From Eledone cirrhosa (Eukaryota): a DNA stretch of 64,000 nucleotides. The notes beneath the pieces were generated by a model that saw only the letters and a list, made by a program, of their open reading frames with translations, made no database searches and was not told where the DNA came from. Each line of letters begins with the position of its first letter. Position 1 is the stretch's first letter. The stretch spans positions 7,998,001 to 8,062,000 of the forward strand of contig OZ024761.1 in the NCBI GenBank assembly GCA_964016885.1, read 5' to 3'. Shown here piece after piece: positions 40,740-46,429 of this stretch. Made by a program: the position numbers and the translations under genes.

Positions 40740-40865
40740 CCTCCCGGTGATTTGAACTTAGTTTCAAGTTACTCGATGATATAATGAAGCGGAGAGACTA
40801 TAAAAACGCTACACCGGTGGCATATTTAGTTTACACCAGTACGAGGTGCATGAAAGAGGTAATGT
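40740..40865 (+). promoter_or_regulatory. Plus-strand paralogous promoter-like module
   Basis: TATAAAA at 40799 with Inr-like TTAGTT whose A lies ~30 nt downstream; GAG|GTAATG donor at ~40859. Confidence 0.4.
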
Positions 40866-40992
40866 TTTATTTGTCTTTTGTGTTACAGGATAACACTAGC
40901 TTAATTTGTTAAATTTATACTACATGTTTGTAATATATATTGTCAACATAGCTATGATTTCATCTCAATTAGTAATTTCAACTCTTCGGAGG

Positions 40993-41156
40993 TTACTGCT
41001 CACATTTCATCTCTTCCACTAAGACACTCTCCACAACCTTTCCTCTCCTCGTATCATCACCCAATGTTGTGTCAATCTCCACAAAGCGAAAGTTTCTCAT
41101 GTCTAACCCTTCTTGTCGAGAATGTCGGCTCCATGGAACTCCCTGTTTACTTCTTT
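40993..41156 (-). CDS. Candidate terminal coding exon of a repeat-borne microprotein gene (unit 1)
   Basis: Acceptor TTGTTTTTTACAG|; phase-1 frame xRSKQGVPWSRH...EEMKCEQ*; AATAAA ~125 nt after the stop (40866-40871); GC-richer than flanks. Confidence 0.5.
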
Positions 41157-44100
41157 CTGTAAAAAACAATGTTTGCAAACATTGAACTTAGTTTACGTTT
41201 TTCTATAATAAAAAAACCCCACCTCAAGCAAGTGTTTCGACCACAAGTGTGTGTGCAGAATAAACGCAAGGTTTGACGGAACAAGAAAATAAAAATGATT
41301 CCTTCTGAGATTTAAATCTTTTACATGGTATTATATGTTCAACCTTGCAGGATGGATAAAATGAAGTATCAGTAATGCACTGGGACAATTGCTGGTCTTA
41401 TGTCAAAAGTAGAAACAATTATATTAAGGGGTTTATGTACATTAAACAATAAAATGACCACTACATTTAACGACGCGTTGATATTAATAGACATACTTAG
41501 TCTTCATAGTTTACTACCTAGTTCATTTGTGTGTGTCTGCCTTATCTCTAAAGAAAGTTTTAAATGGTATGAAAACGTGTTGAATTGAAGCATGTTTATT
41601 TATATGCTGATTGTCTTACCATGAGGGAGAGACAAATAAAGCTTTAAATGGTATGACTACGTGTTCAAATCAGGTAAGTTCCTTATAGTATGAGGATAAA
41701 AAAAAAAAAAATTATTGTTATTATAATCTGATTCGAAAGCCAACCACTGCATTCCCTAGTTCTATGTCTTACCACTAGACTATAAAGCCTTCGATTACTT
41801 TTTGTTAAATATATATCTATATAAACTTATTTTCAGTCTAACAATAAAATAACTTTAAATGTGTTAATTTTCACTACTTATTTGTTGGTCTGTAGGTGGC
41901 CGTGTGGGTTATAGTGCTGTATCTATGCATGCTTTATATATGTATAGATTGGAGGTAGGCTTTCAATCTTCTTTATCTAAAATTTAAAGTATTTTTATTT
42001 TTTTAATTAAAAGAACGGTCTCTACCTTCTGGGCTACCGGGGCCACCTTCATCTCGAAGCCACCTTTTTAGTTCCCCCCTACGCTCGAACCTTCACTACC
42101 TAACTACACTACCTACGATACCACCACTTTACCACACGCCCACCAAGCGGCCGTAATTCTACTGTGCAAATTTGATATATTTAAATCTACTTTAGCATTT
42201 CTTTAATAAAGAACCACCTACGATGTTTGACATAATTGAAAAAAAAAATTACTTTATTATTTCCTAAGCTCTGGCAGGTATCGAAAACCTCATTTTAATT
42301 TCACTTATGCTAAAAACACATATATAATATTAATTATTTTCTTTATAACTTTTCAGTGACAAAATACATACATTGATAAGGTTTCCAATCTCAGAAATAT
42401 CACCACGAGAGATGTGTTTGTGTATCTTTATTATTTATTTGAAAAGTAGTTTTAATTTTTTAAAATATATATTTCACTATTTCCAAGGTCCTAGTAGATA
42501 TTGCATCTTCATCTGTAGATTCATTTAAGTACATAGTATTTGACTTAGGTGAAAAGGATGTAATTATTTTTAAAATTTTCTTTTCAAGTACCAAAATAAA
42601 AATACATTAGTAAGGATTTCAGTCTCATGAATTCGTGGTTGTTATAGACACTTAACTATTGTTGTAGGGCTGCCATAATTACCGCCATGTGGGCATGCAT
42701 TTAAACCTGACTGAGTCAATCCTCGTCTCCTCCTGGTCTAAAAACAGCCGATTTATTTTTCCAGAGAGAAAGAAAGATACTTTTCTTGTCTATAAACGTT
42801 AATTTTGAACAAACGTTTTTCTATCTACCTGTCACCCGAAGAAAGACATGCTCGAATTATTAGTAAGTGTCATAAGAAAGGTTTGTAGATCTAAGTAACC
42901 TAACAAATAGATTTCACATTTATTGGCAATTAAACAAAACATAAAAATAAGCAATACTAAAGCCACAAACGTTTTCTATCTACGTCTCTCCTGAAGAAAA
43001 TAACGCTCGAATTATTACGAGAAGTGTAAATAGATAAATAAAGCAAATGAACCATTAATTCATGTATATGCATGTATGTAGTGTGTGTAAACATACTCTA
43101 GCACAGACGGAGTCTATCATTACCGCTTAAGAAACAAATTTTGGCATAATACTTACTAAATCTATTTTAGCAGTTCTTTAATAAACAAGAACATACGATG
43201 CTTGACATAATTGAAAACAAAAAATTTTACTATTTCATTAGCTCTGGCAGGTATCAAAAACCCTATATATAGATTCATTTTAATTTCACTTGCGTGAAAA
43301 ACGTACATTATTTTTTGATAATTTTTCAGTTACAAAATACATACATCGATAGGGTTTCGAATCTCAGAAATATTTCCACTAGAGATGTGGGTATTTCTCT
43401 TTATTATTCCTTTGAAAATGTGTTTTAGTCCTGGCAGATATCAACATCCCATCTATAGATTCATTTAAATATATTTTATTTAACTTACGTGAATTTGAAA
43501 ACGATATAATTATTTTTAAAATGTTGTTTTCCACTATGTGTGCCTTTAAACCTTCTGAGTCAATTCTCCCCTCCTCCTGATCCTAAAACAGCCAATTTAT
43601 TTTTCCAGAGCGAAAGAGAGATACATTTATTATGTCTTTAAACGTTAATTTTGCACATGACTTATAATTCCTTTTCCTTCTCTTTAGATTGAATAAACAA
43701 ACACATTTTCCGTCTACAATTATATTCACAGTCAAGTTTTTGCTACATCTGATTCAAGCTGTTATGGATTTGGGAGGATCGTTATCCCAAAGTAAAATCT
43801 CCAGCTAAGAATTTATTCCGTAGTAAGTCTCATAAGAAAGGTTTGTAGGTATAAGCAACCTAACATATAGATTTCAAATTTATCGGCAGCTAAACAAGAC
43901 TTTAAAATAAGCAATAATGAAGAAAATTCCGAGCAACATTAGATAAATCTTACTTCCATATTAGCTTTTGTCAATTCAGTAGACCCCTCAACTTTATTAA
44001 TAATCAAAAATCAAGGCCACTTATTGACACTGGACCAGACAAAACATTCATTTAACAAGAAGTCATGGTTTCTAAATGAGAGAATGTTTCTTTAACAAAC

Positions 44101-44444
44101 ACAAGTAGAAGGGATATTCACAGTGCATAGAAGTAGGAAATAACTTCTATCAAATAGATGTTCTAGTGGCCAAGAACTTAGTAGCTCCAGTTCTAATTGT
44201 GTTAGAAGTATTTTTTAAATGAAATTAAACTTAAAGGTATACTAAACCCACAAACGTTTATATTTATATAGGTCTTACCTAAATTAAAAAAAAAACGTAC
44301 AAATTATTACGAGGAGGGTAAACATGAATTCATGCTAATAAATGTACCAGCAAAAAGGCTGCCTCAAGATTTGCTCTTGCTCTCAGAAGAAATCGAACTT
44401 ATGCTTACGTCTACGACATAATTATGGCTGGAGAGGACACTCAC

Positions 44445-44496
44445 TGAACATGACGAATCTACTGGAGATAGAAGACAACAAAAACAACCTGCCTAC
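44445..44496 (-). CDS. Candidate 52-nt start-codon exon (ATG TTC A|gtgagt); paralog at 45057-45108
   Basis: ATATTTCAG| acceptor and GTGAGT donor; the same length and splice positions are kept in the diverged paralog; phase matches the terminal exon. Confidence 0.45.
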
Positions 44497-44818
44497 CTGA
44501 AATATTATATGTTATGATATTAAATATATTTCTTGTACTGTCATGTTTTTCCTTTAAAACGCTTGAATCTGAATAAAGTCTAGGAAACTATTATATACTT
44601 TTGTTATATGATTATACTTAATTCTTTAACTTGACTTATTATTTCTAACTTTTATTATAAGGAATACAAACTTAATAAAATCCTATATCTGTATAAATAT
44701 AATTGTCTGTGTGAAAGTAAATAATATGTATTTTGACAACGAGTTGTAAAAAGCAAGCTCGTCAATCTAGAACAGTTCTACACTAACACAGACGGCAAAA
44801 GAAAAAAATAACCATTAC

Positions 44819-45030
44819 CTCTTACAAACGAATACCAAATTGAATATGTTTCCGAAATACCGGTGTAACACTAAATATATTACCGGGGCAACTAATTCAG
44901 TTTACCCTTTTATAAATCACTCCAGTCATTTCAAATCCTGGTCAGACTGCCGGGAATAAGAAAAAAAGTAAACCGTTTTCCGAAGTTTCTAAATCTTCTA
45001 AAAATAGTAGCCAAATCTCTCACTGTCTCC
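44819..45030 (-). promoter_or_regulatory. Promoter/first-exon-like module (TATAAAAGGG, CCGG hairpin, GAG|GTAATG donor)
   Basis: TATA at 44905-44914, donor at 44818; paralogs at 45386-45605 (-), 39850-40180 (+) and 40740-40865 (+). Confidence 0.45.
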
Positions 45031-45385
45031 AATGTATAATAAACTGTGACATTCACGGAACATGACGAATCTACTACAGATAGAAGACAAGAGAAACGAC
45101 CATCCTGCCTGAAATATTATCTGTTACGATATTAAATATATTTCTTCTGCTATCATGATTTTTTCTTTAAAACTTTGGAATCTCAATAACGTGGAGAAAA
45201 CTATTATATACTATTGTTATATAATTATACGTTAGTTTTAACTTCACTTATTATTTCTAACTCTTCTCATTAGATAGAATACAAAGTTAATAATAAAATC
45301 CTATATGTGTATAGATATAATGTGTGTGAAAGTATGGTAATAAGCTACAGTTATACACTAACTCAGACGACATAAGAGACATTAC

Positions 45386-45605
45386 CTCTAACGAACGAAT
45401 GCGAGACAGATTATGTCTCGGATATACCGGTGTAAAACTAAAAATGTTACCGGTGCAACAGTTTCAGTTTACCCTTTTATAGACACACTCCAGTCATTTC
45501 AAATCGTGTTCAGAGTACCGAGAATAAAAAAAAAAATAAAACCATTTGCCGAAGTATCTAAATCTACTAAAAGTAGCAGCCAAATCTCTCACTCTGTCTC
45601 CAATG
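45386..45605 (-). promoter_or_regulatory. Second promoter/first-exon-like module
   Basis: TATAAAA at 45475-45481; AG|GTAATG donor at 45385. Confidence 0.45.
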
Positions 45606-46429
45606 AGTAGTAAACGGTTACTCATATATACATAGAGAGACAGATGTGTTGGTATATATTAGTGTATATATATTGGTATTTATATAAATTTGCGTGTAAT
45701 TAAATGTATATTAGTCCATATATTCATATACAGTTATTCCCCGGTATTTGCGCGTGATACGGTCCTAGAGGACCCGAGTATATTGAAAAAGCGCGAACAT
45801 TGGAAGTGGTCCATAGAAATGCCTATAAACCACAAAATGTAACGTAAAATATAATAGAAATAGAGGAGCGCCTTATGAGAAGGGGTGTCCAATAGACCGG
45901 CAAATACGATGTATTGTTGTTAATAATTTAGCTTTAAAACAATATATATTGTCATGAAATATATATATTGCTTTCACTGCTCTTTCTAGCATACAGTAGA
46001 AAATAATCGGAAGTGGAGAAAATTGAAAAACTTCTTCTTTTTTCCTCCTCTAACTTTTCAAAACAAAAGAAAATTTTATGTAAACAAAAACGAAATTTTT
46101 GCCACGAATGATAACTCGTCTCTGACTTAAATCCAATTTTTGGATAAAAAAAAATACTTGTGTGCAGTTTTCATGTACACACTTGTTATTACTAGCTAGT
46201 CCTTCTTATTTTGTTTTGTTTTGGGGTCTTTCACTCCTATTGTCCGACCTTTTTCTGTTGTTCTCTATGCATGTATGAATAAATATATATCTATATATGT
46301 ACATATATATGCATACATTTTAATCTGTTCTTACTATAAATATTTGTTCTAGGGTATTTTATATATATATATATTTTATATATACATAAAATCCTTATCG
46401 AGCTCTCTTTGGATTTTAGTTTTCACATT

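What the first reader, a model, noticed from the sequence alone, without database searches (positions are those of the whole stretch)
40860..45610. Tandemly amplified, spliced candidate microprotein gene with two alternative promoters in every 6.9-kb unit
Seen on the - strand: two diverged copies of a cassette [TATAAAAGGG - non-coding exon - GAG|GTAATG intron - ATATTTCAG| 52-nt exon ending ATG TTC A/C|GTGA]. The 52-nt exons are at 45057-45108 and 44445-44496. A terminal exon (41156-40993) follows, with a good acceptor, a stop and AATAAA. Both start exons end in phase 1 and the long frame of the terminal exon begins in phase 1. Splicing gives MF(K/Q)RSKQGVPWSRHSRQEGLDMRNFRFVEIDTTLGDDTRRGKVVESVLVEEMKCEQ (56 aa). 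The terminal exon translates identically in all four units, although flanking DNA in unit 1 differs by indels on both sides. Inference: a lineage-specific small-protein gene amplified for dosage. I do not recognise the peptide, and extra internal exons are possible.
Basis: partly seen in the sequence, partly recalled or inferred. Interest (0 to 1): 0.75.

Follow-up and report, generated by a model that had tools for sequence, protein, structure and literature searches.

The report
Macrosatellite with inward-facing promoter cassettes
This is one unit of a 6-7 kb tandem repeat with at least 150 copies, each carrying promoter-like cassettes that face each other on both strands and likely make overlapping non-coding RNA, while the proposed small protein is intact in only 13 copies and shows no sign of selection.

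Summary
The protein-dosage reading fails. The unit belongs to a family of at least 150 copies in 11 arrays on one contig. Only 13 of 150 keep every piece; 24 full-length matches have a stop and 108 lack the first 15-18 residues. The majority subfamily has lost both the terminal acceptor and the exon-2 donor. Changes in the frame look neutral (17 of 71 synonymous, p = 0.36), and no homologue was found. Each window unit has four cassettes, not two: two face the 'terminal exon' from the other strand, and the 'AATAAA' is the reverse complement of one cassette's intron. The cassette itself looks real: diverged copies on other contigs keep the twin ACCGGT core and a donor-like AG|GTA. Best reading: a macrosatellite likely giving overlapping non-coding RNA; expression is untested. 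The scan had not noted this sequence before.

The parts
39788..46660 (.). Repeat unit 1 (6.87 kb), first of 8 units of this array; the array runs on past the window end
46660..64000 (.). Units 2, 3 and part of 4 (95.5-97.3% identical to unit 1 counting gaps)
45356..45600 (-). Cassette A: TATA 45472-45481, twin-ACCGGT core 45428-45453, candidate non-coding exon 1 ending 45386, donor GTAATG
45057..45108 (-).
44781..45047 (-). Cassette B: TATA 44905-44914, core 44861-44886, exon 1 ending 44819; tandem duplicate of A (76%), absent from the 6.2-kb subfamily
44445..44496 (-). Candidate exon 2B, donor CA|GTGAGT; the donor is removed by an 11-nt deletion in 18 segments from 6.2-kb arrays
42182..43922 (.). 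Old internal duplication (42182-42962 against 43157-43922, 64%); no conserved exon seen
41338..41422 (.). Fragment of a high-copy dispersed repeat (SINE-like; label is my inference), absent from 6.2-kb units
41107..41218 (.). Stretch deleted in the majority subfamily, including the acceptor at 41156 and the first 17 codons of the 'terminal exon'
40993..41156 (-). Proposed terminal exon, 53 open codons, GC 44%; neutral-looking variation
40866..40871 (-). AATAAA; it is the reverse complement of TTTATT just inside the intron of cassette D
40734..40905 (+). Cassette D: TATAAAA at 40799, degenerate twin core, AGAG|GTAATG at 40858|40859; faces the proposed terminal exon antisense
39880..40125 (+). 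Cassette C: core 40031-40056, AAAG|GTAGTT at 40092|40093, no TATA; old inverted duplicate of A (64%)
45942..46154 (.). One arm of a foldback-like element that is a full hairpin with ~200-bp arms in 6.2-kb units; a further copy at the array edge, 39401-39784

Best explanation
The stretch is part of one unit of a 6.2-7.1 kb macrosatellite with at least 150 copies, built from duplicated promoter-like cassettes that point inward from both strands and likely drive overlapping non-coding transcripts, with the 56-codon frame likely a neutral passenger. Shown: the family size and layout; four cassettes per window unit (C and D on +, A and B on -), three in the 6.2-kb subfamily; A and C as arms of an old inverted duplication around a hairpin; loss or breakage of the frame in most copies; no synonymous bias. 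Inferred: the cassette is a working Pol II promoter with a short spliced first exon; arrays grow by unequal exchange and conversion, with the hairpin as a likely recombination seed; sense and antisense RNA over the unit would form double-stranded or small RNA that silences the arrays themselves, as reported for human DXZ4 and D4Z4. Untested: any transcription, tissue, binding factor or small RNA.
For: 150 scored matches of 157 candidates, in 11 arrays on C22 plus strays on C18 and C24. 14 full-length matches are stop-free and 13 of them have exon-2 cassettes upstream. 28 of 51 distinct copies lack the acceptor. 17 of 71 variants are synonymous against 21.6% expected, p = 0.36; omega is 0.77 in the proposed frame and 0.66-1.3 in the other five. 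Identity along the unit is flat, about 75-95%, with no exon peak. Exact core pattern: 10 in the window against 0 in 100 shuffles, 289 genome-wide. Diverged cassettes on C1, C6, C7, C8, C15, C18, C20 and C21; 15 of 19 cassettes lined up keep a donor-like site. Among L068 and 17 loci of the 6.2-kb subfamily the TATA window of A is the least variable 80-nt window (3 variants, median 13) and the region before and over D has 5-7, while the ORF has 10.5 per 80 nt. Internal promoters and bidirectional transcription are described for D4Z4 and DXZ4 (PMC5687341).
Against: No transcript, start site or small RNA was seen, so live promoters rest on sequence conservation alone. The TATA box is not shared by C or by the diverged cassettes. 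4 of 19 cassettes lack the donor. The core was found with a pattern that demands ACCGGT twice, so its conservation in those hits is built in. The terminal acceptor is kept in all 23 copies that have not deleted it and is in phase with the exon-2 ATG (chance about 11%), which fits a once-real exon. The selection test pools broken copies and has little power for the 13 near-identical intact ones. The ORF sits in the more conserved 9-20% of windows in most comparisons with other subfamilies.
Confidence: 0.5

Rival explanations
1. Inert satellite: the cassettes are dead remnants carried along with a foldback-like element, and the arrays expand by recombination alone with no RNA of consequence.
For: Flat conservation. 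No Rfam, tRNA or Pfam feature in the unit. The same hairpin arm sits in an unrelated 4.56-kb array that has no cassette. Arms co-vary within a copy and the loop occurs in both orientations, as DNA-level conversion would give.
Against: A donor-like site is kept in cassettes only 60-70% alike; the promoter windows are the least variable in the 6.2-kb subfamily.
Confidence: 0.22
2. One reading: 13 intact copies make a spliced mRNA for a 56-residue protein, and the other copies are pseudogenes of it.
For: All signals present and in phase. Acceptor kept in 23 of 23 undeleted copies, and the breaks differ between lineages, so the ancestral frame was probably open. Longest phase-1 frame among 5 good acceptors; 34 of 300 shuffles do as well.
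Against: No synonymous bias. Intact in 2 of 8 acceptor-bearing lineages, close to a rough neutral survival of 0.30. Six near-identical sister copies at 6.63-6.66 Mb were amplified with a stop. No homologue. Upstream ATG in exon 2A and four earlier acceptors. The poly(A) signal is explained as part of cassette D.
Confidence: 0.17
3. A Stellate/Su(Ste)-like conflict system: a minority of intact copies encodes a germ-line factor, and the broken majority, through cassette D facing the exon, makes antisense RNA and piRNAs that silence it.
For: Intact minority (13) and broken majority on one contig. D points at the exon from the other strand in every subfamily. The first core site resembles an RFX X-box, 10 of 12 in A and B against 0.3 such sites per shuffled unit (ideal site from PMC2797782).
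Against: No selection on the frame. Intact units carry D themselves. X-box match only 6-9 of 12 in diverged cores. The hairpin does not cover the ORF. No known parent gene. The two RH1-domain matches (one may be the Z-linked SPAG9 of PMC10925132) are on C1 and C1420, not C22.
Confidence: 0.08

Closest known systems
Human macrosatellites DXZ4 and D4Z4 (PMC5687341: passages and first fifth of section 3; PMC4199704: abstract and opening text)
   Same: Head-to-tail units of several kb, tens to more than 100 copies, internal promoter-like elements on both strands.
   Different: AT-rich (about 31% GC) against 48-71% in the review's table; 11 arrays in both orientations on one contig; three or four copies of one cassette per unit; transcription is shown for the human repeats and not here.
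Coding macrosatellites RS447/USP17, TAF11-like, CT47 (PMC5687341, passages)
   Same: A short ORF and promoter inside each unit.
   Different: Their ORFs are conserved between species or encode known proteins; this frame is broken in most copies and has no homologue.
Drosophila Stellate and crystal/Su(Ste) (PMC13643785, abstract and Introduction)
   Same: Intact and degenerate tandem copies of one sequence; a promoter-like element facing the ORF antisense.
   Different: Stellate derives from a known gene (casein kinase II beta), the two arrays lie on X and Y, and piRNAs and a phenotype are shown; none of this holds or could be tested here.
Satellites seeded by transposons or foldback elements (PMC5932611, abstract and outline; Tetris, PMC4079207, search listing only)
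   Same: A foldback-like element sits once per unit in two otherwise unrelated arrays.
   Different: Here the element is about 400 bp of a 4.5-7 kb unit, and no transposase or clear target-site duplication was identified.

Membership tests
Macrosatellite | Repeat unit of several kb | tested here: met
   6.2, 6.9 and 7.1 kb spacings
Macrosatellite | Head-to-tail tandem arrays | tested here: met
   11 arrays on C22, from 3 to more than 25 units each
Macrosatellite | Copy-number variation between individuals (typical, not defining) | not testable with these tools
   One assembly; contig depths are not copy numbers
Macrosatellite with bidirectional transcription (DXZ4/D4Z4 type) | Sense and antisense RNA from internal promoters | not testable with these tools
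   Cassettes on both strands are seen; RNA could not be examined
Protein-coding multigene family (microprotein) | Purifying selection on the frame | tested here: not met
   17 of 71 variants synonymous, p = 0.36; omega 0.77; low power for the 13 intact copies
Protein-coding multigene family (microprotein) | Frame and splice sites kept in the amplified copies | tested here: not met
   13 of 150 complete
Protein-coding multigene family (microprotein) | Homologues in other genomes | tested here: inconclusive
   None; two repeat-protein hits of 17-19 residues (sequences); coverage of related animals by these libraries is unknown
Protein-coding multigene family (microprotein) | Spliced mRNA and translation | not testable with these tools
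   Needs stranded RNA, Ribo-seq or proteomics
Stellate/Su(Ste)-type system | Intact array plus homologous degenerate array with an antisense promoter | tested here: inconclusive
   Layout fits, but intact units carry the antisense cassette too and activity is unknown
Stellate/Su(Ste)-type system | Antisense piRNAs and germ-line phenotype | not testable with these tools
   No small-RNA data
Stellate/Su(Ste)-type system | Sex-chromosome linkage | tested here: inconclusive
   One marker domain (PF09744) maps to C1 and C1420; which hit is SPAG9 was not settled
snRNA-type or spliced-leader RNA gene | Promoter like this genome's U6/U2 genes, or an Rfam match | tested here: not met
   U6 genes have an octamer about 45 nt before the TATA, which the cassettes lack (by eye); no Rfam match at gathering score
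RFX X-box promoter | Inverted GTTGCC half-sites 0-3 nt apart | tested here: inconclusive
   10 of 12 in A and B, 6-9 of 12 in 13 other loci; binding untested
piRNA cluster (flamenco-like) for the dispersed cassettes | Transposon fragments biased antisense downstream of the promoter | tested here: inconclusive
   12 antisense and 8 sense ORF blocks, 26 and 32 SINE hits, in 8 non-C18 loci; some query frames were themselves antisense
MITE / foldback element (the hairpin) | Long terminal inverted repeats and dispersed copies | tested here: met
   413-bp palindrome at 97.8% in L129; 617 candidates for the inner arm
MITE / foldback element (the hairpin) | Target-site duplication and a partner transposase | tested here: inconclusive
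   Flanked by TA runs, which hide a duplication; no transposase was sought

The most novel reading that the evidence does not exclude
A dedicated twin-site promoter family, dispersed over at least nine contigs, has been multiplied into more than 150 convergent transcription units that act as a Stellate/Su(Ste)-like system in a mollusc: 13 intact copies make a 56-residue germ-line factor and the broken majority silences it with antisense small RNA.
Probability: 0.08. Interest if true: 0.85.

Novelty: new member of a known kind. Interest (0 to 1): 0.35.

Why it matters
About 1 Mb of one 32-Mb contig is made of this unit, so it matters for annotating this genome and as a warning: identical translation across young tandem copies is not evidence of coding. 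The cassette is a compact, testable promoter candidate (twin ACCGGT core plus donor) found on at least nine contigs. If both strands are transcribed, the family gives a direct test of small-RNA control of macrosatellites in an animal group for which my eight literature searches listed no such case. One hairpin shared by two unrelated arrays hints at how such arrays arise.

Tried and rejected
Expression: no RNA holder listed; this says nothing on expression. Four runs of unrecorded kind were laid as contigs. X1-X3 behave as DNA. X4 alone gave 7 joints, none at a predicted junction and none with splice-type ends, and its contigs cross 41156, 44445/44496 and 45386 unbroken. Its depths follow X1 at a roughly steady 0.02-0.065 (my ratios from table 8), so it may be low-cover DNA and I draw nothing from it. 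Protein searches: Pfam none; word-based searches none; profile search two repeat proteins matched over 17-19 residues, rejected; the Atlas gave no answer. No fold was predicted, because a 53-residue sequence without outside relatives would give a meaningless model. RNA genes: only sub-threshold miRNA hits, nearly all on TA runs, none at gathering score, no tRNA. snRNA-type or spliced-leader promoter: rejected. Patterns were one base too long and found nothing. The reversed control gave 170 hits because the pattern is nearly palindromic, so that control is uninformative. A parent gene downstream of the dispersed cassettes: 143 and 104 filtered ORFs scanned gave transposon-type domains and a few neighbouring genes (bromodomain/WSD, AP-5 sigma, an MFS domain 21 kb on in sense at C21), no shared family. 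Antisense transposon bias: none clear. Z linkage: unsettled. Densovirus-like or DIRS-like element (recalled architectures with inward promoters): no long ORF or matching domain in the unit, dropped.
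Full report
Observation. The window holds 3.5 units of about 6.9 kb from 39788. The identical translation in four units carries no weight: units 1 and 2 differ at 0.4% of sites, and 342 of 494 equal windows are as free of substitutions, 388 of 494 as free of indels.

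Family. A search of the genome with the terminal-exon translation scored 150 of 157 candidates: 11 arrays on C22 in both orientations, single copies on C22, C18 and C24. Of the 150, 38 match over the full length; 14 of these have no stop and 24 have a TGA (6 at 6.63-6.66 Mb, 17 at 27 Mb, 1 on C18). 108 begin only at residue 16-19, and 4 more are partial or strongly diverged. One of the 14 (30.69 Mb) follows an exon 2 without donor, which leaves 13 complete copies. Three subfamilies appear: 6.9 kb (window type), 7.1 kb and 6.2 kb, about 85-88% alike. The 6.2-kb majority lacks 41107-41218, with the acceptor and first 17 codons (28 of 51 distinct copies). It has lost the exon-2 donor by an 11-nt deletion (18 of 59 segments) and has a single minus-strand cassette. 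So what was amplified most cannot make the peptide.

Selection. Among 22 distinct gap-free versions of the last 35 codons (from 51 distinct copies; copies with indels there were left out), 13 of 50 variants are synonymous, omega 0.77, with 0.66-1.3 in the other five frames (one of its three 'stop' variants is an artefact of classing single changes). Adding the first 18 codons gives 17 of 71, p = 0.36 against the neutral share. Of 8 lineages that keep the acceptor, 2 keep the frame, near a rough neutral expectation of 0.30. Identity along the unit shows no exon peaks. An ancestral exon now decaying is possible, and the test has no power within the 13 intact copies. No homologue was found.

Anatomy. 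The cassette occurs four times per window unit: A and B on the minus strand, C and D on the plus strand, 60-76% alike. C and D point into the unit from the left, A and B from the right. A and C are arms of an old inverted duplication (about 65% over 500 bp) around a hairpin with arms of about 200 bp (z = -37). 26 such hairpins were seen in the fetched family loci. Among 17 compared, several carry the same private change in both arms, and the loop occurs in both orientations. Window units keep one arm. Exon 2A has an earlier ATG opening 9 codons.

Is the cassette real? Its core (two ACCGGT sites 17 nt apart) has 289 exact matches under a tight pattern and 374 under a loose one, including C1, C6, C7, C8, C15, C18, C20 and C21 among the first 100 listed. 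In 19 cassettes lined up, 15 show a donor-like AG|GT within 75 nt of the core, mostly at +31 to +46; the background for AGGTA is 102 of 2352 windows. The TATA box is confined to A, B and, at another position, D. In the 6.2-kb subfamily the promoter windows are the least variable. This supports a promoter with a short spliced first exon, but it is inference. No shared protein-coding gene follows the dispersed cassettes within 10-30 kb. The first site resembles an RFX X-box in A and B (10 of 12) but less so elsewhere (ideal site from PMC2797782, passages); a Grainyhead-type site is a recalled alternative, untested. It is not like this genome's U6 promoters.

Mechanism. Shown: repeated tandem and inverted duplication of one cassette built a unit with inward-facing copies, and the unit was multiplied into arrays and homogenised whether or not the frame was intact. 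Inferred: the cassettes fire in some tissue, their transcripts overlap, and double-stranded or small RNA silences the arrays, as described for D4Z4 and DXZ4 (PMC5687341, passages and part of section 3; PMC4199704, abstract and opening). The hairpin likely promotes recombination: its arm also sits once per unit in an unrelated 4.56-kb family on C18, C20 and C26 that lacks the cassette. Expression could not be judged with the runs on hand.

Comparison and novelty. It meets the definition of a macrosatellite (several-kb units, head to tail) and works most like the non-coding, bidirectionally transcribed ones, although it is AT-rich. It fails the tests for a coding multigene family that I could run. 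Eight full-text searches listed no paper whose title or abstract opening describes this array; most subscription journals are not covered and I read no supplements, where repeat libraries of cephalopod genome papers might hold it. For Z linkage I read the first fifth and passages of PMC10925132; one marker did not place C22. Earlier notes of this scan hold no look-alike. Verdict: new member of a known kind, interest 0.35.

Noticed in passing
L140 400-5300 (G000:C20:27.28 Mb); L141-L145, L147: A second macrosatellite family of about 4.56 kb (arrays on C18, C20, C26; 234 matches to an arm pattern shared with the window subfamily). It has no cassette core, but has a TATATAAAAGG box at L140 ~1800 and decayed tRNA-like stretches; no Rfam or ARAGORN gene.
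   Followed up: partly
L089-L098, L107, L108 (G000:C18:25.0-25.1 Mb and 34.9-35.7 Mb, C20:26.8 Mb): A sister family of at least 19 cassettes followed by mixed transposon fragments; in L094, L097 and L107 the Helitron-type and LINE fragments lie antisense to the cassette.
   Followed up: partly
L068 6934-7338; L129 4778-5189: Hairpin with ~200-bp arms; inner 66 nt nearly invariant (2 variants); perfect dispersed copies on C24 between TA runs; loop flips orientation.
   Followed up: partly
L077, L079, L080 (G000:C3) upstream of U2: U2 snRNA genes, in 2.2-kb tandem arrays, carry a TATA-like box about 30 nt upstream; Pol II snRNA promoters are TATA-less in vertebrates (recalled).
   Followed up: no
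L073-L076 (G000:C19:31.78-31.84 Mb): Tandem array of about 30 U6 genes at 1.8-kb spacing, with an octamer close upstream of the TATA box.
   Followed up: no
window 41730-41800 and 42000-42160: Decayed tRNA-like, GC-richer stretches on the minus strand (by eye); 42088-42188 is 93-94% conserved between subfamilies; not called by ARAGORN.
   Followed up: no
window 24684-25565: 293-codon stop-free, low-complexity frame on +, possibly an exon; no Pfam match.
   Followed up: partly
window 1350-14800, 20571-22554, 33221-33985: Broken LINE-type and other transposon-type fragments (labels recalled from the translations).
   Followed up: no
L083 8200-8250 (G000:C1:161308204): Solitary 60-nt core followed, with no intron, by a short stretch like the end of exon 2.
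   Followed up: partly
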